From a virus (lineage: Duplodnaviria; Caudoviricetes): a stretch of 64,000 nt of DNA. Positions 16,318 through 59,834 of this stretch are shown here, one piece after another. How positions within the stretch are numbered: position 1 is the first letter of the stretch; each line of letters opens with the position of its first letter. Position numbers and translations under genes: made by a program. The notes under the pieces are model-generated. The model was not told the DNA's origin and searched no databases. It was given only the letters and a program-made list of their open reading frames with translations. The stretch lies in IMG/VR virus record IMGVR_UViG_3300025139_000012, positions 7,591 through 71,590 of that record; one strand, 5' to 3'.

Positions 16318-16600
16318 CCTTCTTCTAAAACTTGTTCTTGTTGTAGCCATAAACTAGAATCTTTAGATCTATCTATAAGAGAATGGACATGCCCTAGTTG
16401 TGGTACTGTTCACGATAGAGATCTAAATGCTTCAGTAAACATTTTGAATAAAGGTCTAGATGATCTTTATAGTTTAACATCGGACGAATTAGCCGATTAC
16501 AGACGTCGAGAGTCAGTAAATCCTAAAGTAGAAATACCAAAGGTAGATTCATTGAAACGTCTAGTCAGTTTTATAGATTTTTATAAAACGGCATAATTAT
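16318..16600 (+). mobile_element. tnpB: 3' remnant of TnpB family B (zinc finger, RuvC-III and omegaRNA end)
   Basis: Encodes PSSKTCSCC...DRDLNAS...FIDFYKTA*; near-identical to the reverse complement of 45210-45492. Confidence 0.9.
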
Positions 16601-17279
16601 TAGAATACGCGCTCGCATAAGGGGCTGCCGCAGTAGTTGTTTTGGCTATTTGCGCCGAGGTAGTAAGTTGTCGATATCCAACTGCTGTTGACGAGTTAGA
16701 AGCATTGTATACCGTTAAATTAGCCAGAGTGTTAATAGTTCCCGCTAAACTAGAGCTACGAGTGTTGCCGCCCAACGATGATGCAGAGCATACAAAGTTA
16801 ATCCTGCCGCCAGCGTTGAAAAAATATCTTGCGTGTTGAGCAGATGCAAAACTAACATTGGTGTCTACGAACTGTGACGGTGCAGATGAGTATGGTGCAT
16901 TAGTAGAGTTAAAAGTGTTAGCTGTTCCAGTGATAGTAGTGCCAAGGGTAGCGGCAGATGCCCTGTTAGTATATACAGAGTTAACGCTTGATTGCAGCGT
17001 GCTCAAGTATGTAACAATTGACCCAGCGGTTGGCGCTGCGATTCCAGTTCCTGAACCTGATTGGTGTGTTTTGACAGCATTGAGCTTGTTAATCAATGTT
17101 GCCCACTGTGTTGCTGTTACAATGATGCCAGGGGCTACGGCTGGGACGGCTACGACAGGCACTTGTCCGTAACCAGCATCCCCATAACCAACGCCAAGAA
17201 CAGTGTTTAACTAGTTTGCTCCGTTGATAAGATTATTGTAATCTGCAGCTTGAATCAGGCCGCCTGTTGCGTATGTCAT
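16601..17279 (-). pseudogene. Tail-fibre-like structural gene with in-frame TAG, 3'-truncated by IS
   Basis: ATG 17279 MTYATGGLIQAADYNN..., TAG at 17211-17213, frame continues (LNTVLGVGYGDAGYGQ...ARYFFNAGG) into the family B right end. Confidence 0.7.
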
Positions 17280-17303
17280 ATTACATTTCCCGTATGTTTA
17301 CAT

Positions 17304-19256
17304 TTATATGACCACCGATACCACGGCTGAAATTTTAGACTCATTTTCGTCTACTTTATCCTCAAGAGCGCGTCCTAATACAGTATAAGTTGATGCTTCA
17401 CCTTGTTTCGCTGCTCTGGCTACACCATTTCCTGCGCTTACTAAGCGATCGCCCTTGCTTACTGTTCCGACAACTCTAACCAAAATCCTACCTTGAAGTG
17501 CTACGGGCGGGTGGGTCATGTCAGAGCCAGCGCCATTATTCATCAAATAAGCTGGGTCTTGGCTTATAACTCCAAACACTTGATCACTTAGATCATCATT
17601 ACAGATCGTTATTTCGTGTGTTCCACCAAGCATCACCACCGTTCCTGGCTCGTAGACTGTATCAGCAGCGTATCTTTCTGCCAAGTCAGCGTAGTTTGCG
17701 GTCGTCGCGTTTCCGTTAAATGTCGTAGCATACATTGATGCCCATTTTAACGAAGGTGAACCCACATTATACGTGTTATTACTAGCTGGGAGAATGTTTG
17801 TTGTTATTGTTGTTAAACCAGTGGAGGTCGAAATCTTGCTATCAACATACTGTCTAGTAGCTGCCATTAGTGGATAGCTACCAGTTGATGGGTCATTTCC
17901 AATGAATACATATCCAGCGGAACTTAAAGTAAGTGCGGTCTGCAATGTATTCCCAGAGTCTTTTACTTTAAAGATTACGTCATTTGTAGCAATATTGCTA
18001 GATAAAATAACATTAGCACCAGCACCACCTGCGGTTATAGTAAAACTTGAGTTTAAACCAGCAGTGAACACTCCCTCAACTGTGAGGTTAGTGTTCATTA
18101 TTTGTGGTGCAGTTTTAGTAACATAGTTTGATGCTAACACACCGCCCAAACTTAACGAGTTAGTTGCAGTTCCCTTAAAATTGTTAGCGTAAATATCTTT
18201 AAAAGGAACTACCGCAGATCCAAAATCTCTTGTGCCAGCACCATCTGCAGTAATGATGCCAGTAATAGTGTTTGACCCAGTGCGACTTAAAATTGAGCTG
18301 GATGTTCCGCTCGTTACTGAGTTAACGTAGGAAACGGTTGCTGCTTCAGCTAACCCCAAAGATCCCTTTAGCCAAACGTTGCCCGTAGTTTTGTCAACTC
18401 TAATAGACTCAGTAGATTGTCCAAACATTTTAACTTTCAAATCTTTGCCAGCAGTCAATGAAGTTATATTTACGTTCGCGGAGTCCGACGCAACTTGTAA
18501 ATCGCTTGTTAGTCCGACACCAGCCGTATTAGTAAAAGTTACAGCGCCAGCTACTGTGCCACCCAAGTTTTTGTTTAGATAATCAGTTCCGGCAACACCA
18601 GCTAAGTTAATAGCATCTGCTGCTTTGCCATTAAATATGGGAGCAGATTGCCCAGATGCAGGGACAGTAGTCAAGTTAAATCCAGGAACAATATTTAAAA
18701 ACCCAGGAATAGTGTTACTCTGAAACGAATCTGGACTAATAATTGCTACTACATTGTTATCAATATAAAATTTAACGACGTGATGGTTTGAGGCATCAAC
18801 AGTAGAAACCATGTCCTCAGGGTAAGCCCCAGTTTTACCAAAATTTGCCGAAGCTACAGGGCCGACAAGAGTCCACCCATCAGGATTTGGGGCAGCACTT
18901 GATTTAACAAATAACTGATTAAGAGCTGAATTCCACCATACATCACCAATAACAGGGTTTGCTGGGGCGGTTTCGCTAGTAGTTGAGCCGGCAACTGATT
19001 TCCAAACCGTGCCGTTTCTAACTTTAAGAACCTTGCTAGTGAAATCCCACCAAATTTGACCTTCCAACGGATGTGGGGGCTCAGTAGTATTTGAAAAATT
19101 TTCTAAAAGGTGAACAAAGTTTTCGTTTAGGAATAATCCGTATCCAGCATAATTTTTACCAACTAATGTAATACTAGTTGATAGTTTTGCGTCCACTGTG
19201 CCGTCAAATACAGTCTGTAATGGGGTGCCGTTTGTTTTTGTAATGTTGTAACTCAT
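17304..19256 (-). CDS. Tail fibre / baseplate gp10-like protein with C-terminal chaperone (peptidase G2-like) domain
   Basis: N-terminal LVGKNYAGYG..NENFVHLLENF; C-terminal TANYADLAERY..GTV..PAYLMN. Confidence 0.75.
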   Translation of the reverse strand: MSYNITKTNGTPLQTVFDGTVDAKLSTSITLVGKNYAGYGLFLNENFVHLLENFSNTTEPPHPLEGQIWWDFTSKVLKVRNGTVWKSVAGSTTSETAPANPVIGDVWWNSALNQLFVKSSAAPNPDGWTLVGPVASANFGKTGAYPEDMVSTVDASNHHVVKFYIDNNVVAIISPDSFQSNTIPGFLNIVPGFNLTTVPASGQSAPIFNGKAADAINLAGVAGTDYLNKNLGGTVAGAVTFTNTAGVGLTSDLQVASDSANVNITSLTAGKDLKVKMFGQSTESIRVDKTTGNVWLKGSLGLAEAATVSYVNSVTSGTSSSILSRTGSNTITGIITADGAGTRDFGSAVVPFKDIYANNFKGTATNSLSLGGVLASNYVTKTAPQIMNTNLTVEGVFTAGLNSSFTITAGGAGANVILSSNIATNDVIFKVKDSGNTLQTALTLSSAGYVFIGNDPSTGSYPLMAATRQYVDSKISTSTGLTTITTNILPASNNTYNVGSPSLKWASMYATTFNGNATTANYADLAERYAADTVYEPGTVVMLGGTHEITICNDDLSDQVFGVISQDPAYLMNNGAGSDMTHPPVALQGRILVRVVGTVSKGDRLVSAGNGVARAAKQGEASTYTVLGRALEDKVDENESKISAVVSVVI

Positions 19257-19298
19257 ATATTTTTAATCCTGCGTATACTTATTTATCTGTCAAAAAGG

Positions 19299-21302
19299 TT
19301 ATGACCTGCCAACCGAAATTTCAACTACTCCGTAATCTCCATCAAAGTTTTCCAATGATTTACCTAATACCGTGCCACACTCAGGACGATTGTTTACTCT
19401 AGCCCTCCCATCTTCAGCACTTACTAGCAAATCTCCTTTACAAACAGGGCCAACTACTTTAACTGGGCACCGTCCTTGAAGTGCCAATGCCACTACAAAC
19501 TCGCCTTCACAATTACTATTCATTAAATGAGCTGGGTTTGTTGACACGACTCCAGCAACTGAGTGCAAATCATTGACAGTAGATTTAGTTACCTCAAACT
19601 CACCACCAAACACTAACACTGTGCCTGACTCGTATTGAAAATCTGCCACATAGTTTTCTGCTAAGTCGGCGTAGTTTGCCGTTGTTGCATTACCGTTAAA
19701 TGTCGTCGCATAAACTGTACGGAAGGAGTTTGTCACTGACCCAATGTCAAGTAACGCAGATGATGTTGTTGCTATACCACCAGATGCGATAGTAATTTTG
19801 GCAAAATGTGGGTCCACTAACAACGCATACTGAGTCAAATCTTGCGCTGTGCCTGACACCACATTGTTTACTAGTGTAGAAACAAAGGCAGTTGTTGCTA
19901 TTCTTGTTGAGTTGTCAGTCGTAACAGGTGTGGGTGATGTTGGTGAGCCGCTAAACGATGGACTAACCAGTGGGGCTTTGTTACTCAACGCGGTATTTAC
20001 GTCGGTGCCAAAACTAGCACTATTATTAACTGCTTGGCTTAGTGCCGACAAAGTATTTAGTGTTGGGGTAGTGCCTAGCAGAGTTGATACTGCAGTATTG
20101 ATATTTTGCTGGCGTGTCGTAGCTTCAATTTGAATGTTAGTATCAACATAGAGTTTAGTTACTGCTTGATTATTTGCTGTAACCGCACCACTTAAAGTAA
20201 GGCTGTTAAAGGCACCAATGCCCGACACTACTTCATCCGTCGACACCCCCTGTGAGTGTAAGAACGCTACTTTAGCACTTGGAGAACCAATGGAATATTG
20301 CCCGTTAGCGTCAAATGTTATGCTACTTGATAACGCGCTTGAGCCATCAAGTGGGTAATACTGTTGTAAAGATGTATTAAGTGAGCTGTCAACATATTGT
20401 TTAGTCGCTACTCCAAGAGAGTTAGTTGGGTTGCCAGCAACTAGTACACTCCCGTTCGCACCAACAATAGTCAACGAATCAGTAATAGTACCATTTGGCA
20501 ATGTTACACTCATTACCACGTCGCGGTTGGGTACGTTTCCTACCAGCTTAACCGCGTTACTTACGACTTTGATCGTAAAATCACTAGATGCGCCAATGGT
20601 AATACCGTCATTTGACAAAGTAGAGATAGGATAGTTTGATGATGATGCTACATCTGATCGCAAATAGTTTGCAGCCAAAACCCCGCCCAAGCTGAGGGCG
20701 TTTTCGCTGTTGCCGTAGTAGGTATACGATGTTTTTAAGTTGATGCCGGGCTTAATCGTTGAAAATCCCGCAATATCAGTAGTCGTAAATGTAGGGTCTT
20801 TACTGACGACTGCCATGTCTACTCCTCCAACACTAAGTATTGATACTACATGCGGTTGGGCCAAGTTATCATTTACTGTAACTGCTCGTTCACCGGTTTG
20901 ACCTTGTGCCGACGTAAATATTGGGCCAACCGTGTCCCATGATGAACCGTTGAACACCTTTAACTGTTGAGTAGTTGGGTCCCACCATAGTTCACCATTG
21001 CTAACAGTAGTAGGAGCAAGAGTAGTGTTACTAGTTCCACTTACCATTCTCCATCCAGTACCCGATCTTACAAGCAGTTTCTTGTTAACTTTATCCCACC
21101 ATAACTGCCCTTCCACTGAACCCGATGGCGCGACCGGGCTTGCAAAATTTTCAAGCAAGTGAAGGAAGTTTTCATTTTGTGGCTCACCATACCCAGCATA
21201 GTTTTTACCGATGAGAGTTAAACTGGTGCTGTTATCTACTGTCCCGTTCGCAACAATAATAGGAGTAGTTGATGAGTCGTAAAAGTTAATGGTGAATGAC
21301 AT
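19299..21302 (-). CDS. Tail fibre / baseplate gp10-like paralogue
   Basis: Same N- and C-terminal modules; ATKQYVD and STRIATTAFV fibre motifs. Confidence 0.75.
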   Translation of the reverse strand: MSFTINFYDSSTTPIIVANGTVDNSTSLTLIGKNYAGYGEPQNENFLHLLENFASPVAPSGSVEGQLWWDKVNKKLLVRSGTGWRMVSGTSNTTLAPTTVSNGELWWDPTTQQLKVFNGSSWDTVGPIFTSAQGQTGERAVTVNDNLAQPHVVSILSVGGVDMAVVSKDPTFTTTDIAGFSTIKPGINLKTSYTYYGNSENALSLGGVLAANYLRSDVASSSNYPISTLSNDGITIGASSDFTIKVVSNAVKLVGNVPNRDVVMSVTLPNGTITDSLTIVGANGSVLVAGNPTNSLGVATKQYVDSSLNTSLQQYYPLDGSSALSSSITFDANGQYSIGSPSAKVAFLHSQGVSTDEVVSGIGAFNSLTLSGAVTANNQAVTKLYVDTNIQIEATTRQQNINTAVSTLLGTTPTLNTLSALSQAVNNSASFGTDVNTALSNKAPLVSPSFSGSPTSPTPVTTDNSTRIATTAFVSTLVNNVVSGTAQDLTQYALLVDPHFAKITIASGGIATTSSALLDIGSVTNSFRTVYATTFNGNATTANYADLAENYVADFQYESGTVLVFGGEFEVTKSTVNDLHSVAGVVSTNPAHLMNSNCEGEFVVALALQGRCPVKVVGPVCKGDLLVSAEDGRARVNNRPECGTVLGKSLENFDGDYGVVEISVGRS

Positions 21303-21316
21303 ATTTTATCTATACT

Positions 21317-21964
21317 TTATTGTGACTGGCCATGCCAGTAAATACCCTTGACTGTACGGTAATTCTCTAAAGTTGGAGTATCAGGCACAGTATTAACTAT
21401 ATTTATCAAAGTTCGCAATGTTTTGCGTTTCTGCTCAATGAATCTCACATACGCATCTCCCAACTGCTGAATTTGCTGCTTGCTATGCTCACGCAATGCC
21501 CATGTCGAGTCAATATTTTCCGCTTCAGCGCAGGTCACGCTAAATCTCCAATCCACGGTTGCATAAGGCGACAGTGATGAGGATACTGCCGCTTGTATAT
21601 TTTGCTGATCTAGCAGTTGAGAAGGGTAAAAATGAGGAGTTCCTAGAACTGACGACACTAGTCCGCTCTTGCAAACAAAGTCACATTCAGCGTAAAGTTC
21701 TTTTATTTTGTTTGCCTTAGCGGAAGTAACACTTGGGAGAGAGGTAATCTCTGAAGTTTGCGGTTTGAAATATAAATCTTGCTCAGGTAGCACTCCCATC
21801 TTTATTCCACTAAAATACGAAATAACCATATTGGCTGCATTGAGATCGTAGATTGGTTTATATGAATCTGAATAGGCCGCACAATTTGGGTCAGATGGAT
21901 GTGTATACGAAACTATACGCATTGTCATTGGATCTACAACTACTGTTAAAAATATGTTATTCAT
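21317..21964 (-). CDS. Tail-fibre assembly-like protein (DUF4376-like)
   Basis: SSVLGTPHFYPS..DQQN..W..REHS.QQIQQLG pattern; follows a fibre gene. Confidence 0.6.
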   Translation of the reverse strand: MNNIFLTVVVDPMTMRIVSYTHPSDPNCAAYSDSYKPIYDLNAANMVISYFSGIKMGVLPEQDLYFKPQTSEITSLPSVTSAKANKIKELYAECDFVCKSGLVSSVLGTPHFYPSQLLDQQNIQAAVSSSLSPYATVDWRFSVTCAEAENIDSTWALREHSKQQIQQLGDAYVRFIEQKRKTLRTLINIVNTVPDTPTLENYRTVKGIYWHGQSQ

Positions 21965-24166: not shown

Positions 24167-24170
24167 AGTA

Positions 24171-30737: not shown

Positions 30738-32288
30738 TCATAGGTTATTTGCCTTCGCCCACGCCATTGATGTTCCAGCTGGCCATCCGTATAATGCATC
30801 TATATCTGCTGCTGTTTTGCCTATACTCATTGCGTACTGCCAAAGTGTCAGTTCAGATGATCTGCCATTTCTTACTGCAGGATCATTTGCATACGCATTT
30901 ACTGCTACTTTAGTCCATGCAGGCGTCGCGGGAGTTGCGGCCGTTGTGGCGGGTATTGATGTAGTAACTGGAGTAGGAACTGGTGTAGGAACTGGTGTGG
31001 GTTTCGGAGTTATACTACTAGTCGCAGCAGGTGGTACATAATTAGATGAGTTTGAACTTTGTAAATCTGGTATGTTTGCTCTAGCCCACGCCATTGATGT
31101 TCCAGCTGGCCATCCGTATAATGCATCTATATCTGCTGCTGTTTTGCCTATACTCATTGCGTACTGCCAAAGTGTCAGTTCAGATGATCTGCCATTTCTT
31201 ACTGCAGGATCATTTGCATACGCATTTACTGCTACTTTAGTCCATGGAATATTCACTGTGGTTAGACTATTCCAATCAAACTCCGGTTCTGTGTTAGCTA
31301 TCCACGGTTTAATAAATGGGCTTATATTTCCCCCACCATCCCACAGAAGTTTAATGCGGGAATTTGATCTTCGAATTTCATTTATTGTCTGTATAAAAAT
31401 ACTATTTTTTACTATTGGAATCTGAGTGGCAGGGTCAGTACTGACACTTTTTATCCATGCATCCTTTACTGTTCCTTGACCTAAGGTATTGGGTTGTGCC
31501 GCTAACCAATTTATATATTGTTGCTGCTCTGGAACTGTAATAGCTGCAGCACTTCCATTTTGCACAATGTCTGGGGTCGCTAAGTGGGCTGCATCTTCGC
31601 CGCTACCCGGGCTTCTTGGTGTTGCAGGGGTAGATGCATCAGGTCCGCTTCCTGGTGTAAATCCGCTTCCTGGTGTAAATGCAGTATATCGATATATTGG
31701 TATTGATACGGGCCTGAAATACTTTTTATTTTCAAACAAGAAATTAACTTTAAGAGAAGTTGAAGTAGTTGACGTCGATAGCGGAGTGATATCCAATGGT
31801 CCAGAGTATGCGCCAGATGAGTCAAGATATATATGCTTTTCTCCTGGGGTGATCACTACTGGGGGTATTGTTGGATTACCTGCCGCTGTTGTTGCAACCC
31901 ACTCGGGTTCAGTTAACACTTTATTCAAATTAGTAAGGTCAGATAGTCTTGTGATGACATAATTTTTATACCCTACTACTCTATTACCGATTAATTTTGC
32001 AATAACATCAGCAGTTGAATACCCAGATGCTGTACTTAGATTATTTGTCGAATACTCAGTAATGTCTATATATTCTTGCATTGTAATGCCCGGCGCATCA
32101 TCCGCGGTTAGCAGCATTAAATCAGCAGCAATCTTTGAAACTACCTGAGAAGGTGAATAAGGTGGTGTTACATACGCGTTACTTACAAACTCCTTAATTG
32201 TTAGTCCAGTGTCAATTTTAACACGAAATGCATCAAAAGTGACCACTGTGTTTGTTATTTTACTTTTAAATGCTGCAATTAGTTTCAT
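30738..32288 (-). CDS. Hypothetical protein with a duplicated 54-aa domain and Pro/Thr linker
   Basis: 516-aa ORF; WTKVAVNAYANDP...GTSMAWA occurs twice. Confidence 0.75.
   Translation of the reverse strand: MKLIAAFKSKITNTVVTFDAFRVKIDTGLTIKEFVSNAYVTPPYSPSQVVSKIAADLMLLTADDAPGITMQEYIDITEYSTNNLSTASGYSTADVIAKLIGNRVVGYKNYVITRLSDLTNLNKVLTEPEWVATTAAGNPTIPPVVITPGEKHIYLDSSGAYSGPLDITPLSTSTTSTSLKVNFLFENKKYFRPVSIPIYRYTAFTPGSGFTPGSGPDASTPATPRSPGSGEDAAHLATPDIVQNGSAAAITVPEQQQYINWLAAQPNTLGQGTVKDAWIKSVSTDPATQIPIVKNSIFIQTINEIRRSNSRIKLLWDGGGNISPFIKPWIANTEPEFDWNSLTTVNIPWTKVAVNAYANDPAVRNGRSSELTLWQYAMSIGKTAADIDALYGWPAGTSMAWARANIPDLQSSNSSNYVPPAATSSITPKPTPVPTPVPTPVTTSIPATTAATPATPAWTKVAVNAYANDPAVRNGRSSELTLWQYAMSIGKTAADIDALYGWPAGTSMAWAKANNL
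30757..31246. repeat. Identical 163-bp direct repeat (30757-30919 and 31084-31246)
   Basis: Manual alignment, no mismatch seen. Confidence 0.92.
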
Positions 32289-32804
32289 AATTATGCCGTT
32301 TTATAAAAATCTATAAAACTGACTAGACGTTTCAATGAATCTACCTTCGGTATTTCTACTTTAGGATTTACTGACTCTCGACGTCTGTAATCGGCTAATT
32401 CGGCCGATGTTAAACTATAAAGATCATCTAGACCTTTATAGAGTATGTTTACTGAAGCATTTAGATCTCGATCATGTTTAGTACCACAGCTAGGACATGT
32501 CCAATCTCTAGTAGATAGGTCTTTAATGAACTTTTCGTCTTGTGGTAAACAAGGACCAATAAAATTATGATTGAAAGATGCAACAAATTGATTCCAGATA
32601 TATCTAACCGCACCAAAGTTACGGTCCAGAAAACTAGACTGTTCCTTAGTGGGATAGATTCGGTATTTGAATGATTTTAGAACTAATTGAGTCATAAATT
32701 ATATTGGATTATATAGTTTAGTTAATGTTTTAAGTTTACCATATATAAATTATATTGAAGTTATATGGTTATTTATGGTAATTTATGGTAATTAAAATTT
32801 AGTC
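32287..32804 (-). mobile_element. tnpB: Internally deleted TnpB family B element (mini-tnpB ORF 32291..32695)
   Basis: N-terminal ~60 aa fused in frame to the C-terminal ~70 aa of the 45214..46449 protein; shares its AT-rich leader and GGCATAATTAT end. Confidence 0.9.
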
Positions 32805-45189: not shown

Positions 45190-45209
45190 CGCTTTGATCC
45201 TTGACTATG

Positions 45210-46524
45210 ATAATTATGCCGTTTTATAAAAATCTATAAAACTGACTAGACGTTTCAATGAATCTACCTTTGGTATTTCTACTTTAGGATTTACTGACTC
45301 TCGACATCTGTAATCGGCTAATTCGGCCGATGTTAAACTATAAAGATCATCTAGACCTTTATAGAGTATGTTTACTGAAGCATTTAGATCTCGATCATGT
45401 TTAGTATTGCAACTAGGACACGTCCATTCTCTTATAGAGAGATCTAAAGATTCTAGTTTATGACCACAACAAGAACAAGTTTTAGAAGAAGGAAACCAAG
45501 TATCTATTTGATGGAACGTTTTACCGTACCAGTTAGATTTATAGCTGACCATTCCGATTAAAGTAGACCAAGAAGCATCTTGAATTGACTTAGATAATTT
45601 TCTATTCTTAATCATATTCTTGACTTTAAGTGATTCCATAATTATGGTATCATAGTTATTTACTAACCAAGTTGATAGATTATCATAAATAAACTTTCTT
45701 TGGTTAGTTACTTTTAGATAAAGTCTAGCCACTTTAAGTTTCATCTGTTTGTATCTGGATGAATCTTTAACTTTCTTACTAAATGCTCTTTGAGTTATTT
45801 TTAGTTTCGTTTGGGTTTTACGAAACCATCTAGGATTACTGATTTTCATGCCTGTTGAACAGATAAGTAAATCTTTTAAACCCAGATCAATACCAATACT
45901 CCTACCGGTATTTTGTTTCAGCTCTATAGGTTCTTCAACTAGAACCGAAACAAAATATTGGTTGGCTTTATTCTTTGATACTGTTACCGATTTCAACAAT
46001 CCAGAAAATTTTCTATCGATAACTAGTTTAATAGGCGACATCTTTGGTAATTTGATTCTAGAAGTCTCAAAATTTATACAGGAATTAAATTTTAGACATT
46101 GACCTGGAATTTTAAATGAATCATTAGAAACTCCTTTTTTCTTGAACTTTGGTCTACCTAATTTGACTGCTCTCTTTTTAGAAAAGAATTGCTTCTTGAA
46201 TTCAACCCAGTCCATTCTTTTCTGTTGTAGACCGTAACTAATTACTTCAGTCAAGAATTCTTTTCCGGGTAGGTCTTTAATGAACTTTTCGTCTTGAGGC
46301 AAACAAGGACCAATAAAATTATGATTGAAAGATGCAACGAATTGGTTCCAGATATATCTAACCGCTCCAAAGTTACGGTCTAGAAAACTAGTCTGTTCCT
46401 TAGTGGGATAGATTCGGTATTTGAATGCTTTTAGAACTAATTGAGTCATAAATTATATTATATAGTTTATTTAATGTTTTAAGTTTACTATATAAATTAT
46501 ATTGAAGTTATATAGTTATTTATC
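45210..46524 (-). mobile_element. TnpB family B element, intact copy (no transposase gene)
   Basis: AT-rich leader and GGCATAATTAT end shared with three other copies; inserted between gp25 and gp6; left boundary approximate. Confidence 0.8.
45214..46449 (-). CDS. tnpB: RNA-guided endonuclease TnpB, family B
   Basis: AFKYRIYP, RuvC GIDLG / MESL / DRDLNAS intact, zinc finger. Confidence 0.93.
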   Translation of the reverse strand: MTQLVLKAFKYRIYPTKEQTSFLDRNFGAVRYIWNQFVASFNHNFIGPCLPQDEKFIKDLPGKEFLTEVISYGLQQKRMDWVEFKKQFFSKKRAVKLGRPKFKKKGVSNDSFKIPGQCLKFNSCINFETSRIKLPKMSPIKLVIDRKFSGLLKSVTVSKNKANQYFVSVLVEEPIELKQNTGRSIGIDLGLKDLLICSTGMKISNPRWFRKTQTKLKITQRAFSKKVKDSSRYKQMKLKVARLYLKVTNQRKFIYDNLSTWLVNNYDTIIMESLKVKNMIKNRKLSKSIQDASWSTLIGMVSYKSNWYGKTFHQIDTWFPSSKTCSCCGHKLESLDLSIREWTCPSCNTKHDRDLNASVNILYKGLDDLYSLTSAELADYRCRESVNPKVEIPKVDSLKRLVSFIDFYKTA

Positions 46525-46544
46525 GTTGCGATAATATTAGTATA

Positions 46545-53478: not shown

Positions 53479-55195
53479 AGACTTTCAAGATAGAAAATAC
53501 TTATCCCTAAAGCATCTAATAGATTCAGAGTTATGGGATTCTATCTTTAAAAATTATTATGACTATGGAATTTTGAATCCCAGACAACTTATTTTTCATG
53601 CTAGCAATGATATTGGTGAAATACCACTGTGTATTTGCGGAAATAAGTTAAAATGGAATCCAGACGATAGAGCATATCGTAAGTTTTGCTGTTCAAAATG
53701 TGCTGGATTACACTCGGTTGAAAAAAATAAAGCTACTAACTTAAAAAAATATGGGGTAGAGTGGGCATCGCAGCGTGGAGATCATAGTGAGAAAATCATT
53801 GAAGCGTCTTTAAGAAAATTTGGGACCACTCACTATAGTCAAACACAAGAGTTTCATGACCGTGTTATTTCTTCAAATGTTAAAAAGTTTGGAGTAGCAT
53901 ATCCAGCACAGAGCAAGAATGTTAAAGAAAGAATCGAGCAAATTACTATTGAAAAATATGGTGTTGCTTCAAATTTTCAAAGAGCAGATGTTAAAGAGAA
54001 AATCAAAGCAGCTAACTTGACAAAATATGGCAAGGAAAATGTGTTGAGCTGCCCTGAAATTCGTGATAAAGTTGCTGCCACTAATTTAAGTAGATATGGA
54101 GTTAAAGTTCCACTACAAAATGCAAACCTCGCAGCTAAGGCTGGAGATACCAGGAAAAGTAACTATTATGCCCCATCTGTTTTAGAAAAATTAAATAACG
54201 CAGACTGGCTTGCATCATCAAATCTAGTGAAGACAATCGGCGAGCTCGCGTCTGAGCTAGGTGTAAGCAGTAGTAATCTAAACAAATACTTTCATAAGCA
54301 TAGTTTGCCCATTGTAGCTCATACCGCAACCGAACTGGAACGTAAGTTCAAAAGTTACTTTGAATCAAAAAATATTTCAGTTGAACTCCATAATAGAAGT
54401 GTTATATCTCCAAAAGAAGTTGATGTGTATTTTCCAGATTTTAAGTTAGGAATTGAAGTGAATGGGGGATATTGGCATTCAGAGCAGTTTGTCAAAAGTC
54501 AAAGTTATCATTTAAACAAAATCATTGCTTCTGAAAAAGCTGGAATTACGCTAATGCAGTTTTGGGATTGGGAGTTGAATGACAAATGGGATATTATCAT
54601 CAGCAGGATTGAACACCTGATGAAATTGTCAACCAAAGTTTTCGCAAGAAAGTTGTCACTAATCAGCCTCAACAGTGAAAGCAAAAGAGAGTTTCTGGAT
54701 CAAAATCATATTCAAGGCGACTGTGTCAGTAGCGTGAACTACGGGCTAATAAATGAGAATGGAGAATTATTTATGGTCGCCACCTTTGGTAAAAGTAGAT
54801 TCACAAAAAAAGCATCTTACGAGTTACTTAGGTTATCTGCTAAGAAAAAATATGCTGTTATTGGTGGGGCATCAAAATTGATCAAACACTTTATTTCAGC
54901 ACAAATGAAAGATGATGAAACAATGATCAGTTATTGTCACCGCAGATTTAGTTCTGGCCGTGTGTATTCTGCTTGCGGATTTACTGCAACTCATACTACT
55001 GCTCCAGGATATGTGTATACAAAAGCAGGTAGGCTAGTGGGATCAAGAAATGCTTGGCAAAAACATAAGTTAAAAGACAAACTTCTTGTTTTTGATCCGC
55101 AAAAATCTGAAGTAGAAAATATGAATCAAAATGGATTCTATCGTGCGTTTGATTCTGGGCAAATTGTATTTGCTTTCACTAACCAACGAGTTTAA
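53453..55195 (+). CDS. Hef-like/Vsr-type endonuclease with GNAT-like tail (copy 4)
   Basis: Six K(Y/F)G repeats, EVDVY..GIEVNGGYWHS, ELLRL..GGASKL..SYCH; start 53453 or 53438. Confidence 0.75.
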   Translation: MTQLAITIKDFQDRKYLSLKHLIDSELWDSIFKNYYDYGILNPRQLIFHASNDIGEIPLCICGNKLKWNPDDRAYRKFCCSKCAGLHSVEKNKATNLKKYGVEWASQRGDHSEKIIEASLRKFGTTHYSQTQEFHDRVISSNVKKFGVAYPAQSKNVKERIEQITIEKYGVASNFQRADVKEKIKAANLTKYGKENVLSCPEIRDKVAATNLSRYGVKVPLQNANLAAKAGDTRKSNYYAPSVLEKLNNADWLASSNLVKTIGELASELGVSSSNLNKYFHKHSLPIVAHTATELERKFKSYFESKNISVELHNRSVISPKEVDVYFPDFKLGIEVNGGYWHSEQFVKSQSYHLNKIIASEKAGITLMQFWDWELNDKWDIIISRIEHLMKLSTKVFARKLSLISLNSESKREFLDQNHIQGDCVSSVNYGLINENGELFMVATFGKSRFTKKASYELLRLSAKKKYAVIGGASKLIKHFISAQMKDDETMISYCHRRFSSGRVYSACGFTATHTTAPGYVYTKAGRLVGSRNAWQKHKLKDKLLVFDPQKSEVENMNQNGFYRAFDSGQIVFAFTNQRV

Positions 55196-55203
55196 AATAG
55201 CGT

Positions 55204-56220
55204 ATGAGTAATTTATTTAAAAAAGCGATTGTCTTTACTGATTTGCATCTAGGTTTGAAATCAAATAGTGAAGCCCACAATAATGACTGTCTTGAATTTG
55301 TAAATTGGTTTATCGAGACCGCAAAAAAAGAAAACTGTGAGACTTGTTTCTTCCTTGGCGATTATCATAACAACCGTGCAAGTATGAATATCCGAACTAT
55401 GACCTATGCTGTAAAGATATTAGAACTTCTCGGAGAAAATTTCTCTCAAGTGTTTTTTATACCAGGAAACCATGATCAATTTTTCAGAGATCGTCGCGAT
55501 ATTCAATCAGCCGAGTGGGCTAGGCATATCCCAAACATTACCATTGTCAATGAGTTTTTTAAAGACAGTGATGTAAGCATTGTTCCGTGGCTAGTTAAAG
55601 ACGAACATAAGAAAATTGAAAAGATCAATGCCAAATATTGTTTTGGACACTTTGAGTTGCCGCATTTCTATATGAATGCGCAAATTCAGATGCCGGATCA
55701 TGGTGAAATACAGCAGGATCATTTCAAAGGTGTCGAGCAAGTGTTTAGCGGGCACTTTCATAAACGGCAAAATGGAAAGAATATAAACTACATTGGCAAC
55801 TGTTTCCCGCATAACTACAGTGATGTCGGAGACGATGAGCGTGGGTGTATGGTGTTAGAGTGGGGTGGGGAGCCAGAATATTTTTCGTGGCCAGATCAGC
55901 CCAGATATCGTATCTACCAACTTAGCCACCTCTTGAACAAGGCTGAAACTATTTTGAAGCCAAAAATGCATGTCCGTGTTAACTTGGACATTGACATTAG
56001 TTATGAAGAGGCTACTTTTGTGAAGGAAACTTTTGTTGACACTTATAAACTGCGAGAGCTTACGATGATTCCAGTGAAAAAAGATGTGTCCTCAGATGTT
56101 GTAACGCCAGGTAGTATTCAGTTTTTATCAGTGGATCAGATTGTTAACGCTGAAATTTCGCAGATTAAAAGCGATCATTACGATCCAAAAGTGTTGATTG
56201 ATATTTACAGGAATCTCTAA
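55204..56220 (+). CDS. Recombination nuclease (gp47/Mre11/SbcD-like)
   Basis: DLH, GD, GNHD, GHFH metallophosphoesterase motifs. Confidence 0.92.
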   Translation: MSNLFKKAIVFTDLHLGLKSNSEAHNNDCLEFVNWFIETAKKENCETCFFLGDYHNNRASMNIRTMTYAVKILELLGENFSQVFFIPGNHDQFFRDRRDIQSAEWARHIPNITIVNEFFKDSDVSIVPWLVKDEHKKIEKINAKYCFGHFELPHFYMNAQIQMPDHGEIQQDHFKGVEQVFSGHFHKRQNGKNINYIGNCFPHNYSDVGDDERGCMVLEWGGEPEYFSWPDQPRYRIYQLSHLLNKAETILKPKMHVRVNLDIDISYEEATFVKETFVDTYKLRELTMIPVKKDVSSDVVTPGSIQFLSVDQIVNAEISQIKSDHYDPKVLIDIYRNL

Positions 56221-56222
56221 AA

Positions 56223-58022
56223 TTGTTTACGATAAAAAATCTCACTACAAAAAATTTCATGTCAGTTGGGAATAATACCCAGGCTATAAACTTTGATAGA
56301 AAAGATTTAACTTTGGTGTTGGGTGAAAACTTAGACTTAGGCGGTGATGATGCTGGGTCACGTAATGGGGCTGGTAAGTCTGTTATCGTTAACGCTTTGA
56401 GTTATGCCTTGTTTGGGCAGGCAATAAACGACATTCGTCGTGACAACTTGATCAACCGGACTAATGCTAAGGGCATGCTTGCTACGATTGACTTTGTTAA
56501 GGATGGGGTCACTTACAGGATTGAACGCGGGCGTAAACCCAATGTCTTGAAGTTTTACAAGGGAGATGTCGCGTTTGCAGCGCAGGATGATGATGCTCAA
56601 GGTGATTCTCGTGAGACCCAGGCTGAGATTGATCGTATCTTAGGTATGTCGCATGATATGTTCAAGAATGTGGTCGCGTTGAACACTTACACTGAACCGT
56701 TCTTGAGCCTCAGAGCTAACGATCAACGCACAATCATTGAGCAGTTGCTTGGCATAACAGTGCTGAGTGAGAAGTCGGATGCTCTTAAAGAGCAGATTCG
56801 CGCTACCAAGGACACGATTTCAGCAGAAGAACAGCGTATCAAAGCGTGTGTTGAGGCAAACAAGAAAATAGAAGAGCAGGTCGCCGCTCTCAAGAAGCGT
56901 AGCGCACAGTGGGAAGCGAAACATGAGGTCGATATCGCTGATTTGTCAAGTTCTTTGGAAGAATTGCTCAAGGTAGACATTGATGCTGAGATTGATACAC
57001 ACGCTGCTAACGATGAGATAGCGTTGGCAGTGAAAAAACTTGACGATCATAAGAAAGCGTTGACTCGCACTGCCACAGAGCTTACCCGCGAAGAGCGAAC
57101 ACGAGACACTACTACAGCAGAAATCACAGCACTCAAGGATCACAAGTGCCACGCTTGCGGGCAGGATTTGCACGATGGCAAGCAAGAGGAGATCTTGAAG
57201 CGTAAGATCGCGGTGTTGGAAGAGGCTGAGGCTCAGATCGTGGAACTTTTGGAAGCAAAAGTCAAGATAAACGAGCAGATTGCGGCAATTGGGAGCGTTG
57301 GGACTGCAAAGAGCACGTTTTACAAAAAAATCGTTGACGCTCATAATCATAAGAGCTCAGTTCAGCACCTCACACAGCAGCTCGAGGGCAAACTTGGTGA
57401 GGTCAATCCATACAGTGAGCAGATCCAGGAGATGGAGGAGGCCGCACTCATCGTCGTGGACTATACGACCATTGACGCTGCTTCAAAGCTCAAGGATCAT
57501 CAAGAGTTCCTGCTCAAGCTCCTCACTAACAAGGACAGTTTCATCCGCAAACGGATTATCGATCAGAATCTTACCTACCTCAACGCACGGCTCTCTTACT
57601 ACCTTGAAAAAATAGGGCTACCACACACGGTAGTGTTCCAGAGTGATCTTACAGTCAGCATTGAAGAGTTTGGCCGTGAGCTTGATTTTTACAACCTTAG
57701 CCGCGGTGAGATGACACGGGTCATCTTATCGTTGAGCCTGTCGTTCCGCGACGTATGGGAATCAGCACACGAGGCAGTCAACCTTCTGTTCATTGATGAG
57801 ATGATTGACAACGGGCTGGACTCAAGTGGCGTTGAAAGCGTAATGGGCGTTCTCAAGCGGATGGCCCGAGATTCACAGAAGAGTATTTGGCTGATCTCAC
57901 ACAAGGATGAGCTTATCAGTCGTGTCGGGAACATTTTGAAGGTCCAGAAAGAGGGTGGGTTTACACAGTATATTACTGACGACACAGAAGATGCTAATGA
58001 AGAAGCAGTAGTAGTTGAGTGA
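56223..58022 (+). CDS. Recombination ATPase (gp46/Rad50/SbcC-like)
   Basis: NGAGKS Walker A, CHAC zinc hook, LSRGE signature, LFIDE Walker B, ISH. Confidence 0.92.
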   Translation: MFTIKNLTTKNFMSVGNNTQAINFDRKDLTLVLGENLDLGGDDAGSRNGAGKSVIVNALSYALFGQAINDIRRDNLINRTNAKGMLATIDFVKDGVTYRIERGRKPNVLKFYKGDVAFAAQDDDAQGDSRETQAEIDRILGMSHDMFKNVVALNTYTEPFLSLRANDQRTIIEQLLGITVLSEKSDALKEQIRATKDTISAEEQRIKACVEANKKIEEQVAALKKRSAQWEAKHEVDIADLSSSLEELLKVDIDAEIDTHAANDEIALAVKKLDDHKKALTRTATELTREERTRDTTTAEITALKDHKCHACGQDLHDGKQEEILKRKIAVLEEAEAQIVELLEAKVKINEQIAAIGSVGTAKSTFYKKIVDAHNHKSSVQHLTQQLEGKLGEVNPYSEQIQEMEEAALIVVDYTTIDAASKLKDHQEFLLKLLTNKDSFIRKRIIDQNLTYLNARLSYYLEKIGLPHTVVFQSDLTVSIEEFGRELDFYNLSRGEMTRVILSLSLSFRDVWESAHEAVNLLFIDEMIDNGLDSSGVESVMGVLKRMARDSQKSIWLISHKDELISRVGNILKVQKEGGFTQYITDDTEDANEEAVVVE

Positions 58023-58079
58023 AAAAATATTTCACTCGATTAAATCGAGGATAAATCAGTTTAACAAAGGGTATTTATT

Positions 58080-58265
58080 ATGACAACACACGAACAAATC
58101 GCAACTGCTTACGCAGCGTATCTTGAAGAATCAGCTAAGTTTGAAGAAAAGGGCGTGAAAGCGGCTGCCGCCAGAGCTAGGGCTGCTCTTGGTGACTTGG
58201 GCAAGCTCACAAAAGTGCGACGCGGTGAGATTCAGGACAAGAAAAATCTGATGTCTGCAAAGTAA
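58080..58265 (+). CDS. Small basic Hc1/histone-like protein
   Basis: KFEEKGVKAAAARAR.AL..L.KL.K.RR.EIQ pattern. Confidence 0.65.
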   Translation: MTTHEQIATAYAAYLEESAKFEEKGVKAAAARARAALGDLGKLTKVRRGEIQDKKNLMSAK

Positions 58266-58283
58266 AAGACTAAATAGATACTG

Positions 58284-58817
58284 ATGAGCACAGTAACTCC
58301 TAAAGTCAACGGCAAAAGTAAAGGTTCCTCGTATGAGCGCAAGATATCTAACTTGCTATCATCTCGCTTCGAAAAGGTAACTGGAATTTCATCCGCTTTC
58401 CGTAGGAATACAGATTCTGGCTCATTTTTTGGTGGTTCAAATCAACGCCGAGTCGTGACACATGATTTAAACCACGCTAACTTTGGAGATTTGATTTGCC
58501 CAGATGGATTCAAATACTCCGTTGAGTGTAAAAACTATAAAGCAGGCCCCACGTTCGCTGCCATTGTGAAGGGTAAAGTCGCACAATGGGACACGTGGAT
58601 TAAGCAAGCAACTCAGGACGCTAGAAATAGCAAAAAAGAAATGCTTCTTATAATCAAATACAACGGGACTGACGATCTTGTATTTGTTGAAAAACGTCAA
58701 CCAACTTTAAACCCACTATTTTATTACAACCAAGTTTTCGGCTACAGGTTAAAAGATTTTTTAGCCCAATCTGATGACAAATTTTTTCCTTATGGATTAG
58801 AAAAATATTACTACTAA
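58284..58817 (+). CDS. Holliday junction resolvase-like PD-(D/E)XK nuclease
   Basis: SKGSSYER, SG, GDL, VECKNY. Confidence 0.75.
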   Translation: MSTVTPKVNGKSKGSSYERKISNLLSSRFEKVTGISSAFRRNTDSGSFFGGSNQRRVVTHDLNHANFGDLICPDGFKYSVECKNYKAGPTFAAIVKGKVAQWDTWIKQATQDARNSKKEMLLIIKYNGTDDLVFVEKRQPTLNPLFYYNQVFGYRLKDFLAQSDDKFFPYGLEKYYY

Positions 58818-59088
58818 ATTTAAATTACCATAAATAGTCATATAACTTTAATATAATTTATATGGTGATCTTAAAATAACTAGAATGACTTTGTGGAACT
58901 GGAGGTAAAATTAAATTTCACAAAATGAGTTTTGAGTAAAGGTCTAAATGATCTTTACTCACTTACATCGGAAGAATTATCCGATTACAGACGTAGAGAG
59001 TCAGTAAATCCTAAGGTAGAAATACCAAAGGTAGATTCGTTGAAACGTCTAGTCAGTTTTATAGATTTTTATAAAACGACATAATTAT
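58813..59088 (+). mobile_element. Non-coding TnpB family B remnant (leader plus omegaRNA end)
   Basis: 58813-58880 matches the family B leader; 58938-59088 matches its 3' end, finishing ACATAATTAT. Confidence 0.85.
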
Positions 59089-59098
59089 TGTATATATT

Positions 59099-59834
59099 TC
59101 GCTATCAGAGACCATCTCTTATTATTTTTGAAAAAAGCCCAGCCACAAAGGCACATGCACACAGCGGGCTAGTACACCTGTTTAAGTATTAGTAGAGAAA
59201 TGGATTTGCACAGAGTCTGACCTGTATCTGTGTGGCAAGGCCCTCATTGGTGGTGTGGCCCACTGCTGTAAGCGAACTCTACGCGAGCTATTACACTGCG
59301 ATGAGCAGTCCTACCTTTGTGTAAGAAGCAAAGGAACCATAAAAAATATCATCCCCAAGGTGGCGTTGAGTGCCTGAAAAACTGGTCACACGTTGGAGCG
59401 ATGTTTTAGTAATAGTTTAACAGGTTTTACCAAAGCGGCCGGTGGTTCATAATAGACGGTATATCCCACTGGGTTAGCGGCAGATCATTTTCCTAATATA
59501 TTTGATCATGCTTGGTGCGTAAAGTAACGGTTTACTCCTTTACTCGTACCACTAACGAACGCGCTTCGTGCCAGGAAAAATAATATTTCGGGTGAGTAAT
59601 ATATTTTTCTGGTTGAGAGTGACATAGTCAATCCCCTCCATTAAAACGAAGATATAGGTGCAAGGGCGACAGGTAAATTGCAAAGCGTAGAGTCAAGAAG
59701 GCTCAAATCATGATTTGATTTGATTTTCTTTGACTCACATTTGCCGTGCTGGCTCTTGGTAATTGGCAATACTGGTCGCTACTTTCAGTAGCTCGCAAAA
59801 ACCGCTCAGGTGTCGGTTATGTAAATGATAGCGA
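59099..59834 (+). ncRNA. Putative large structured non-coding RNA of unknown class
   Basis: No ORF >=60 aa; closing helix 59099-59107/59826-59834; many internal helices with G.U pairs that favour the + strand. Confidence 0.6.

What the first reader, a model, noticed from the sequence alone, without database searches (positions are those of the whole stretch)
16318..59108. One intact TnpB-B plus three remnants that keep the omegaRNA end: a dispersed multi-guide system
Seen: four copies share a highly similar 3'-terminal ~150 nt ending CATAATTAT (ends at 16600+, 32287-, 45210-, 59088+), but only one encodes a full RuvC nuclease. Two remnants also keep the leader with ATAAATA. The predicted guides differ: TAGAATACGCGCTCGCATAA (tail gene), GAAACTAATTGCAGCATTTA (start of the 516-aa gene), CATAGTCAAGGATCAAAGCG (gp6 RBS region) and TGTATATATTTCGCTATCAG (5' end of the putative ncRNA). 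No family B transposase or IS605-type left hairpin is visible. Inference: remnants supply guides in trans to one late-expressed nuclease that cuts empty alleles of competing phages at several loci, like a CRISPR array scattered across the genome.
Basis: partly seen in the sequence, partly recalled or inferred. Interest (0 to 1): 0.78.

Follow-up and report, generated by a model that had tools for sequence, protein, structure and literature searches.

The report
Phage TnpB transposon with guide-only minis
A fragment of a very large phage carries one working copy of a small RNA-guided-nuclease transposon and three cut-down copies that keep its guide-RNA part; this arrangement is already described for bacterial transposons and is well documented here in a virus.

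Summary
Four copies of a 152-nt segment all end in ...CATAATTAT, at 16600(+), 32287(-), 45210(-) and 59088(+). Only 45214-46449(-) encodes a full TnpB, with the RuvC D-E-D residues and the zinc finger intact. The segment is a structured RNA under selection: 43 conserved pairs, 10 of them with compensatory changes. Synonymous divergence is about five times lower where the tnpB gene overlaps it. In the remnants it differs at 2/152 positions, against 12-18% just upstream. The family is mobile. Related aquifer phage contigs give 28 distinct right-end flanks. Insertions lie 3' of RTAT (11 of 12 left-end flanks, 5 of 6 empty sites), without a target duplication in the one fully resolved case. A syntenic relative lacks the intact copy and shows ATAT next to the predicted protospacer. 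So this is an IS200/IS605-type, tnpB-only OMEGA element with PATE/MITE-like derivatives of two subfamilies. One further fragment, which has lost its left end, abuts a second element (TnpB-A). No intact TnpA was found. Use of the remnant guides in trans by the one nuclease is plausible and fits the conservation, but is not shown. The idea is already in print for bacterial PATEs. The CRISPR-array and phage-competition reading remains inference.

The parts
45210..46539 (-). Full-length element B45 (alpha subfamily). It comprises a degenerate left end, the leader, tnpB-B and a right end ending ...CATAATTAT at 45210. The left boundary is uncertain: 46539 after ATAC, or 46509 after TATAT.
   Evidence: The syntenic record G001 has 78 nt in place of window 45213-46544.
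45214..46449 (-). tnpB-B, 411 aa. It has D188, E272 and D354 in the RuvC motifs, and CxxC at residues 325 and 344.
   Evidence: Pfam PF12323, PF01385 and PF07282. E 2.6e-61 to PDB 8h1j TnpB, with the motifs aligned. Residue positions. dN/dS is 0.07-0.09 against beta homologues.
45210..45361 (-). omegaRNA scaffold of B45, 152 nt in four helices. It overlaps the last 49 codons of tnpB-B.
45190..45209 (-). Predicted guide of B45. It covers the RBS and start region of the 1105-aa baseplate wedge gene (41872-45189).
   Evidence: The G001 allele has ATAT followed by a 17/20 match.
32287..32804 (-). B32: an internally deleted alpha mini-element of 518 nt. It keeps the left end, the leader and the first ~60 codons, fused in frame to the last ~75 codons (134-aa ORF at 32291-32695). 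It is flanked on the 5' side by AATAT.
   Evidence: Repeats D2 and D3. The same derivative lies at two other loci (L041 and L043 types).
32287..32438 (-). omegaRNA scaffold of B32
   Evidence: 187.5 bits. It differs from B45 at 2/152 positions, against 10/84 just upstream.
32267..32286 (-). Predicted guide of B32. It is the start of the 516-aa ORF (30738-32288), whose ATG uses the last two bases of the right end.
58809..59088 (+). B58: a beta-subfamily mini-element of 280 nt, made of left end, shortened leader and scaffold. It is flanked on the 5' side by AAATAT.
   Evidence: Orthologous copies lie in G001/L006 and L089. Full-length beta relatives are L064, L071 and L090.
58937..59088 (+). omegaRNA scaffold of B58 (beta type)
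   Evidence: 194.2 bits
59089..59108 (+). Predicted guide of B58, at the start of an ORF-poor 1.36-kb stretch
16318..16600 (+). B16: the 283-nt 3' fragment of an alpha copy. It has no left end and starts exactly where the right end of element TnpB-A stops.
   Evidence: Inverted repeats I1 and I2
16449..16600 (+). omegaRNA scaffold of B16
   Evidence: 188.5 bits. It differs from B45 at 2/152 positions, against 17/131 upstream.
16601..16620 (+). Predicted guide of B16. It lies in the 3' end of the convergent 193-aa ORF at 16581-17162, which has no family match.
14818..16317 (+). Neighbouring element TnpB-A, a different family. It holds a Y1 tnpA remnant at 14882-14995(-) and tnpB-A at 14995-16233(+), and its own right end finishes ...CAGTTGAC. 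It is not part of family B, but it explains the truncation of B16.
   Evidence: A mini-A with the same ends lies in L003/G002.

Best explanation
The four loci are copies of one IS200/IS605-type, tnpB-only (IS1341-like) OMEGA element family living in a large T4-like phage.

- One copy is full length and encodes a TnpB that looks catalytically intact.
- Two are internally deleted, protein-less or nearly protein-less PATE/MITE-like derivatives of two subfamilies. They keep the left end, the leader and the complete 152-nt omegaRNA scaffold.
- One is a 3' fragment that lost its left end and lies next to another element.

Shown:
- The scaffold is a four-helix RNA under purifying selection.
- The family inserts 3' of RTAT, without a target duplication in the one fully resolved case.
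- The right end finishes in TTAT, so a filled site does not present the TAM.
- Related phages are polymorphic for presence or absence at the same sites.

Inferred: transcripts that run through a scaffold into its 3' flank are bound and trimmed by TnpB-B. For the remnants the nuclease has to come in trans from the single intact gene. The complexes cut RTAT-flanked copies of that flank, meaning the empty allele left after excision or the empty allele of a co-infecting relative. Recombination with the filled genome then restores or spreads the element. This is transposon retention and homing at four loci, not a host-serving immune array.
For: Identity of the nuclease:
- Pfam HTH_OrfB_IS605, OrfB_IS605 and Cas12f1-like_TNB domains are present.
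- E is 2.6e-61 and 3.1e-61 to the solved TnpB chains 8h1j and 8bf8/8exa over residues 6-365. The GxDxG, E and HDRD motifs and both CxxC pairs align.
- dN/dS is 0.07-0.09 against three beta homologues over the first 362 codons.

The scaffold is an RNA:
- RNAalifold on 20 sequences gives 43 pairs, 10 of them with both-side changes.
- 98.4% of cells are paired. 0 of 500 shuffles reach the observed covariation, and slid controls give 0-2 compensated pairs against 10.
- The minimum free energy is -39.5 kcal/mol, z = -4.43, and 0 of 200 shuffles fold as well.
- dS falls from 0.89-1.03 in the gene body to 0.17-0.21 in the last 50 codons.

The remnants keep it:
- Scaffold differences are 2/152, against 17/131, 10/84 and 15/84 just upstream.
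- Among 7 distinct beta minis, pairwise difference is 0.014 in the scaffold with 0 gapped columns of 152. In the leader it is 0.060 with 33 gapped columns of 104.
- The beta deletion junction lies at the foot of helix 1.

Mobility and TAM:
- There are 28 distinct 20-nt right flanks among 64 right-end instances.
- 11 of 12 distinct left flanks end in RTAT.
- 5 of 6 empty sites have R-T-A-Y next to the protospacer.
- One site (rf4) has both flanks aligned to the base: a 302-nt mini lies between ...AAATAT and the flank.

Empty allele of the intact copy: G001 is syntenic at 86-89% identity on both sides. It has 78 nt instead of 1333, with ATAT followed by 17/20 of the guide.

Orientation: 4 of 4 scaffolds point the same way as the gene immediately upstream, so read-through transcription could supply the precursors.

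Precedent: PATEs that encode omegaRNAs needing TnpB in trans (PMC10055086, Discussion passage).
Against: - No RNA ends, no loading and no cleavage were observed.
- The RNA-library contigs that cross right end-flank junctions could be read-through mRNA or carried-over DNA.
- The sigma-70-type promoter scans are not above shuffles: 5 against 2.4, 4 against 3.3, and 8 against 5.8.
- No intact TnpA was found in this record or in 10 related virus records, one of them 100% complete. What mobilises the family is therefore unknown.
- The low scaffold divergence may be partly gene conversion. B16's last 175 nt are identical to a mini in other contigs, while its upstream part is about 20% different. The mini N-terminal parts show reticulate shared polymorphisms.
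- B58 is of the beta subfamily. Whether the alpha nuclease (88% aa identity to beta) accepts it was not tested.
- A truncated 105-nt remnant that cannot form the scaffold also persists in at least 6 contigs, so plain debris exists in the family.
- The left boundary of B45 is ambiguous.
- The G001 protospacer has mismatches at guide positions 12, 16 and 20.
Confidence: 0.7

Rival explanations
1. Plain transposon debris. The remnants are recent deletion products and fragments with no function of their own. Their scaffolds look conserved only because they are young, are homogenised by gene conversion with full-length copies, or are needed as the DNA right end for transposition.
For: - Reticulate shared polymorphisms link minis and full-length genes.
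- B16 is mosaic: its last 175 nt are identical to a foreign mini while its upstream part is divergent.
- A 105-nt remnant without a foldable scaffold persists in several contigs.
- Promoter scans are not above chance.
Against: - Within the same mini copies the leader varies 4 times more than the scaffold and carries all the indels.
- The conserved block spans 152 nt and four helices with compensatory changes. From memory, this is far more than the ~50-60 nt right end that a Y1 transposase needs.
- Two independent deletion types (alpha and beta) both spare the whole scaffold.
Confidence: 0.2
2. The set is a domesticated, phage-serving dispersed guide array. One late-expressed nuclease uses four guides to destroy or convert competing phages that lack the insertions, giving the phage itself a competitive benefit.
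For: - Related phages differ in occupancy at the same sites. G001 lacks B45 but has B58, and L003-type contigs are empty where L063 carries minis.
- The window's stretch is held by 18 DNA runs labelled aquifer metagenome at half of its sampled words or more.
- Guides lie at gene starts of structural genes.
- The B45 left end is degenerate, as if immobilised.
- Homing endonucleases are known to mediate phage competition (abstract of PMC11620839, from the listing; review passages).
Against: - The family is still transposing to new sites, with 28 distinct flanks. That is selfish spread, not a fixed array.
- The copy number is specific to this clade. A complete 178-kb relative has 2 scaffold hits and an 82%-complete 292-kb one has 1.
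- There is no evidence on timing of expression or on benefit to the phage.
- No excess identity was seen around the shared B58 insertion: about 91% against 86-89% elsewhere. This was not examined with a sliding window.
Confidence: 0.25
3. The 134-aa in-frame fusion ORF of the alpha mini (HTH part plus C-terminal zinc-finger and RuvC-III part) is the selected product, for example a regulator or decoy of TnpB. The scaffold would then be conserved as its coding sequence.
For: - The ORF is intact at 3 of 3 alpha-mini loci.
- B32 and L041 differ at 22 nt but only 2 aa.
- 11 of 14 differences in the first 177 nt are at third codon positions.
Against: - Many of those differences are shared with full-length genes in a reticulate pattern, as expected from gene conversion.
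- Beta minis and B16 keep the scaffold without such an ORF.
- Only 1 of 16 database hits (one cluster, 14 member sequences, 3 contigs) covers the whole mini protein.
- In the scaffold-overlapping codons dN/dS is 0.46-0.68 with depressed dS. That points to RNA-level rather than protein-level constraint.
Confidence: 0.07

Closest known systems
ISDra2-type TnpB/omegaRNA (IS200/IS605 family OMEGA system; PDB 8h1j, 8exa)
   Same: - The domain order is the same, and the RuvC D-E-D residues and zinc finger align at E ~1e-61.
- The omegaRNA overlaps the 3' end of tnpB and ends at the right end, with the guide taken from the flank.
- A short 5' TAM is defined by the left-end flank.
- The one fully resolved insertion has no target duplication.
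   Different: - The TAM is RTAT here. From memory, it is TTGAT in ISDra2.
- No tnpA accompanies family B.
- The element resides in a phage structural gene cluster.
- Activity was not tested.
PATE-like non-autonomous IS200/IS605 derivatives that encode omegaRNAs (Geobacillus stearothermophilus; Meers et al. preprint PMC10055086, passages read)
   Same: The minimal elements keep both ends and the omegaRNA but no nuclease gene. They are scattered at many sites and are proposed to depend on TnpB (and TnpA) supplied in trans.
   Different: - Here they sit in a virus genome, in two subfamilies.
- One type keeps an open 134-aa fusion ORF.
- One copy lacks the left end.
- Relatives with filled and empty sites are available from related contigs.
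Free-standing and intron-borne homing endonucleases of large phages (marker exclusion, interference between co-infecting phages; review PMC13565253 passages; abstract of PMC11620839)
   Same: The predicted outcome is the same: the allele that lacks the element in a co-infecting relative is cut, and it is repaired from the element-bearing genome.
   Different: - Recognition would be RNA-guided and programmable by the flank, not protein-based.
- One nuclease could serve several loci.
- Nothing of this is demonstrated here.
Phage VIPR systems with solo/orphan vrRNAs (bioRxiv 10.64898/2026.10.15.759431, abstract only)
   Same: Stand-alone guide RNA genes in viral genomes are used by an RNA-guided protein encoded elsewhere, in conflicts between viral elements.
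   Different: - According to the abstract, VIPR silences transcription with non-contiguous recognition.
- No homology to it was tested or is claimed.
- The present nuclease has an intact RuvC site.

Membership tests
IS200/IS605-family TnpB (OMEGA) element | TnpB protein with an N-terminal HTH/WED part, a RuvC-like OrfB_IS605 core and a zinc-ribbon TNB domain | tested here: met
   PF12323 (E 4.7e-14), PF01385 (5.3e-23) and PF07282 (7.4e-24), all above the curated cut-offs.
IS200/IS605-family TnpB (OMEGA) element | Intact RuvC catalytic D-E-D and CxxC...CxxC zinc finger | tested here: met
   D188, E272, D354 and the CxxC pairs at 325 and 344 align with the same motifs of solved TnpB 8h1j. That these are the catalytic residues of ISDra2 TnpB is recalled, not tested.
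IS200/IS605-family TnpB (OMEGA) element | Structured omegaRNA overlapping the 3' end of tnpB and ending at the right end | tested here: met
   43 pairs, 10 of them compensated. z = -4.43. dS drops about five-fold in the last 50 codons. There is no Rfam family match, so the assignment rests on position and covariation, not on homology to a curated omegaRNA model.
IS200/IS605-family TnpB (OMEGA) element | Insertion 3' of a short conserved motif (TAM) without target-site duplication, and a right end whose last bases differ from the TAM | tested here: met
   RTAT in 11 of 12 left flanks and R-T-A-Y in 5 of 6 empty sites. One site is resolved on both sides to the base. The right end finishes TTAT or TTAC.
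IS200/IS605-family TnpB (OMEGA) element | Y1 (HUH) TnpA transposase, in the element or in the genome | tested here: not met
   Only a 36-position C-terminal remnant is present, inside the other element TnpB-A. No serine recombinase was found. 0 of 10 related virus records have a Y1 gene other than that same remnant. The record is only 21% complete, and tnpB-only elements are, from memory, the majority of the family, so this does not exclude membership.
IS200/IS605-family TnpB (OMEGA) element | Subterminal hairpins at both ends | tested here: inconclusive
   Right end: helix 4 (12 pairs) lies 8 nt from the tip. Left end: an imperfect palindrome lies about 30 nt from the tip in all three left ends, with one compensatory change between B45 and B32. 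It is significant only in B45 (z -3.9; B58 -0.7, B32 -1.5).
IS200/IS605-family TnpB (OMEGA) element | RNA-guided, TAM-dependent DNA cleavage | not testable with these tools
   Needs an interference or in vitro cleavage assay.
PATE/MITE-like non-autonomous derivative | Short element that keeps both transposon ends, lacks the nuclease gene, and occurs at several unrelated sites | tested here: met
   B32 type: 3 loci share the same deletion junction. B58 type: 5 distinct right flanks and 7 distinct sequences of 280-311 nt. B16 does not qualify, because it has no left end.
CRISPR array | Clustered direct repeats separated by acquired spacers, with adaptation genes | tested here: not met
   The copies lie 13-16 kb apart on both strands. 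Each 'spacer' is the resident flank of its own insertion. The resemblance is functional analogy only.

The most novel reading that the evidence does not exclude
In this uncultured large phage lineage, one TnpB nuclease is loaded in trans with guide RNAs from protein-less mini-elements of two subfamilies scattered through the structural gene cluster. The phage thereby cuts, and converts or excludes, co-infecting relatives at several loci at once. That would be an RNA-programmed, multi-locus form of phage marker exclusion. The minis spread as guide cassettes, and gene conversion with full-length copies keeps them matched to the nuclease.
Probability: 0.3. Interest if true: 0.75.

Novelty: new member of a known kind. 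Interest (0 to 1): 0.5.

Why it matters
TnpB genes without a transposase are common in phage genomes, but what they do there is largely untested. This clade offers a natural experiment:
- an apparently intact nuclease;
- a well-defined scaffold RNA;
- a TAM deduced from real empty sites;
- guide-only derivatives at several loci;
- related phages that differ in occupancy at those loci.

That makes the proposed RNA-guided homing between co-infecting phages, and the trans use of guide-only elements, directly testable with a handful of constructs. As a kind of element it is not new.

Tried and rejected
- GenBank phages. Megablast of 20 kb found nothing. Distant blastn of the element found one weak 164-nt match in a Campylobacter phage transposase. 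No annotated relative is therefore available.
- Rfam. No family reaches gathering score in the window. Only two chance-level matches appear in 58800-60500.
- tRNAs. None in the window.
- Empty sites for B32 and B16. A search with the 516-aa neighbour found no relative in viral contigs. The 292-aa neighbour is a widely conserved protein whose 80 loci are at most 76% identical and were not syntenic enough to use. Two more records were searched with window 14000-33900 and matched only the elements; three metagenome handles were not held. The empty alleles of these two sites therefore remain unknown.
- Promoters. Sigma-70-type scans around three copies are not above shuffles. The phage may use other promoters.
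- RNA evidence. All four runs are contigs, so starts, ends, strand and level cannot be read. Depth in the bin holding the B58 right end and its flank is higher in RNA run X19 (142.8) than in neighbouring bins, and higher relative to the DNA runs. Depth is one figure per contig and the element is repeated, so I do not count this as evidence of expression. The bins without cover in X20 mean nothing.
- A joint in X19. It replaces 58809-59081 by 21 other letters, but has only 29 letters on its shorter side. This is below the tool's own threshold, so it is reported only as something noticed.
- Mini ORF as a protein family. Only one cluster covers the whole 134 aa.
- Guide of TnpB-A against tnpB-B. 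It matches 20/20, but A's TAM cannot be read from two copies, so no conclusion was drawn.
Supplements of the papers were not requested. The supplementary figures of the Meers et al. preprint on PATEs may bear on how similar those elements are.

Full report
**Setting.** The window is bases 7591-71590 of a 71,590-nt virus record that CheckV rates 21% complete, so it is a fragment of a genome of a few hundred kb. The region holds a T4-like structural cluster. It contains a baseplate wedge subunit (41872-45189), a gp25-like protein (46545-46901), a baseplate hub/lysozyme, tail-fibre-like proteins and two very large virion proteins. It also holds an HNH homing endonuclease, an SbcC-like nuclease subunit and a PDDEXK nuclease. 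No close relative exists among GenBank phages.

**The observation.** The repeat finder links 16318-16600, 32287-32522, 45210-45492 and 58937-59088 at 90-95% identity. BLAST of the last 156 nt of the intact copy finds 4 of 4 places in the whole record. A covariance model finds exactly these four at 186-194 bits, with the next hit at 17 bits. In the alignment, all four run together to ...CATAATTAT and share nothing beyond it. The stop codon of the intact gene lies 4 nt before that end.

Only 45214-46449(-) is a whole TnpB. It aligns to solved TnpB structures at E ~1e-61 over residues 6-365, with the GxDxG, E and HDRD motifs and both CxxC pairs in place. In this protein these are D188, E272, D354, C325 and C344. 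Against three homologues of a sister subfamily its dN/dS is 0.07-0.09, so it is a gene under selection and not a relic.

**What the remnants are.**
- B32 (32287-32804) has the left end, the leader and the first ~60 codons joined in frame to the last ~75 codons.
- B58 (58809-59088) has a left end and a leader that match full-length elements of a second subfamily, beta (L064, L071, L090; 88% aa identity to TnpB-B for the L011 copy). They are joined directly to the last 152 nt.
- B16 (16318-16600) is only the last 283 nt. It starts at the base where the right end of a different element stops. That element, TnpB-A (14818-16317), has its own tnpB and a 36-position remnant of a Y1 tnpA on the other strand.

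**The 152 nt are a structured RNA.** Twenty homologous ends (four from the window, sixteen from related contigs, down to ~78% identity) fold into four helices. There are 43 pairs, and 10 of them show changes on both sides. On the same alignment 98.4% of cells are paired. No shuffle out of 500 reaches the observed covariation or the number of compensated pairs, and sliding the partners by 1-3 columns leaves 0-2 compensated pairs. The single sequence folds at -39.5 kcal/mol, z -4.43.

Inside the full-length genes, synonymous divergence between subfamilies is 0.89-1.03 over the first 362 codons. It is only 0.17-0.21 over the last 50 codons, where dN/dS rises to 0.46-0.68. This is the signature of a second, non-protein constraint on that stretch. 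Rfam has no matching family, so the name omegaRNA rests on position, structure and the homology of the protein.

**Do the remnants keep it under constraint?** Among the three alpha copies of the window, the scaffold differs at 2 of 152 positions. The stretch just upstream differs at 17/131, 10/84 and 15/84. Among seven distinct beta minis from different sites, pairwise difference is 0.014 in the scaffold with no gapped column. In the leader it is 0.060, with 33 of 104 columns gapped. Both deletion types spare the whole scaffold, and the beta junction lies at the foot of helix 1.

Against a simple reading, copies clearly exchange sequence. B16's last 175 nt are identical to a mini found in other contigs, while its upstream part is far more divergent. 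The N-terminal parts of minis and full-length genes share polymorphisms in a reticulate pattern. A 105-nt stump that cannot form the scaffold also persists.

**Mobility, target and empty sites.** Pattern scans of viral and metagenome contigs, together with a protein-based scan, gave 64 right-end instances with 28 distinct 20-nt flanks. Reading together, these break down as:
- 9 full-length copies;
- 3 alpha minis;
- 5 beta minis;
- 3 fragments without a left end;
- 8 cut by a contig or locus end.

Twelve distinct left flanks end in ATAT (10), GTAT (1) or TAGT (1). Six right flanks also occur without the element in other contigs. There the bases next to the protospacer are GTAT, ATAC, ATAT, TTAT, ATAT and ATAT. 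The TTAT case belongs to the 105-nt stump, whose left side is not homologous. For one site, both flanks align to the base and a 302-nt mini sits between ...CAAATAT and the flank, with no duplication. The right end itself finishes TTAT (or TTAC), that is, with a pyrimidine where the TAM has a purine. This would spare filled sites. That inference is modelled on the TAM/TEM distinction described by Meers et al..

For the intact copy, record G001 matches the window on both sides at 86-89% identity. It has 78 nt where the window has 1333, with ...ACTATAT directly before a 17/20 match to the predicted guide. G001 does carry B58. The left boundary of B45 is ambiguous, because its left tip is degenerate and G001's spacer resembles part of it.

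**What moves it?** No Y1 or serine transposase gene is present in the record, apart from the remnant in TnpB-A. None is present in 10 related virus records, including a complete 178-kb genome that carries a B-like tnpB. Precise RTAT-linked insertions argue for Y1-type transposition supplied from elsewhere (host or co-resident element); this is inference. Copy number is a clade feature: the complete relative has 2 scaffold hits and an 82%-complete 292-kb relative has 1.

**Expression.** All four scaffolds point the same way as the gene just upstream, so read-through could feed them. Promoter scans are uninformative. Four runs on record as metatranscriptomic hold parts of the stretch. Contigs of two of them cover much of 44500-60500, and some run from a right end into the flank of other copies of the family. 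Contigs cannot show RNA ends or exclude DNA.

**Comparison with what is known.** The element meets the tested features of an IS200/IS605-family TnpB element except for the presence of TnpA, and tnpB-only members are common. Protein-less derivatives that keep the ends and the omegaRNA are described as PATE-like elements. In the passage I read, the authors state that these need TnpB in trans (PMC10055086). A 2026 review lists homing into coinfected phages or plasmids as a theoretical mode (PMC13565253). Solo guide RNAs in phage conflicts are reported for the unrelated VIPR systems (abstract only). Five full-text searches turned up no paper describing guide-only TnpB derivatives scattered in a phage genome. 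This is a statement about those searches, not about the whole literature.

**Verdict.** The best reading is a mobile OMEGA element family with guide-only derivatives. Trans use of the guides is likely but unproven, and the phage-competition function is an attractive inference. It is a new member of a known kind, and it makes a good natural test system.

Noticed in passing
window 14818-16337 and 45473-45492: The other element, TnpB-A, ends at 16317. Its predicted guide (16318-16337, the start of the B16 fragment) matches 20/20 an internal site of the intact tnpB-B gene. A might therefore target B copies, but A's TAM cannot be read from the two copies available.
   Followed up: partly
L082:9300-10754 (also L061): A full-length B-like element is followed directly by the last 437 nt of another B-like copy. 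This is the same 'element plus 3' fragment of a second element' layout as TnpB-A plus B16. It may reflect insertion into a copy followed by mobilisation from the first left end to the second right end.
   Followed up: no
window 32291-32695; L041:3001-3405; L043:3001-3405: The 134-aa fusion ORF of the alpha mini is open at 3 of 3 loci. Its differences are mostly at third codon positions (11 of 14 for B32 against L041 in the first 177 nt). Many are shared with full-length genes in a reticulate pattern, which suggests gene conversion.
   Followed up: partly
window 59089-60448: A 1.36-kb stretch has no ORF above 79 aa, no tRNA and no Rfam match. It begins at the B58 guide. Contigs of an RNA-library run cover part of it at higher depth than the neighbouring genes. 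Its nature is unknown.
   Followed up: partly
window 58808/59082: One contig of RNA-library run X19, from a strain a few percent different, has 21 other letters in place of 58809-59081. It lacks the B58 mini but keeps its last 7 bases. Only 29 letters lie on the shorter side of the joint, so this is weak. If real, the present junction may have arisen by a deletion between two TAATTAT repeats.
   Followed up: no
L063:2306-2607 versus L085:4490-4791: Two beta minis share the same right flank but have different left flanks. This is either recombination between copies at different loci or a metagenome misassembly at the repeat.
   Followed up: no
window 53438-55195: A 585-aa HNH homing endonuclease (phrog_3339, E 2.4e-119) lies among nuclease genes. 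It is a second, protein-guided homing system in the same region.
   Followed up: no
window 30748-30919 / 31075-31246; 63656-63997; 5225-5349 / 6630-6754; 1-82 / 1347-1428: Other repeats are present: a 172-nt direct repeat (98%) inside the 516-aa ORF, five 57-nt-spaced tandem units in the last ORF, a 125-nt inverted repeat (98%) flanking 5350-6629, and duplicated gene starts near the window's beginning.
   Followed up: no
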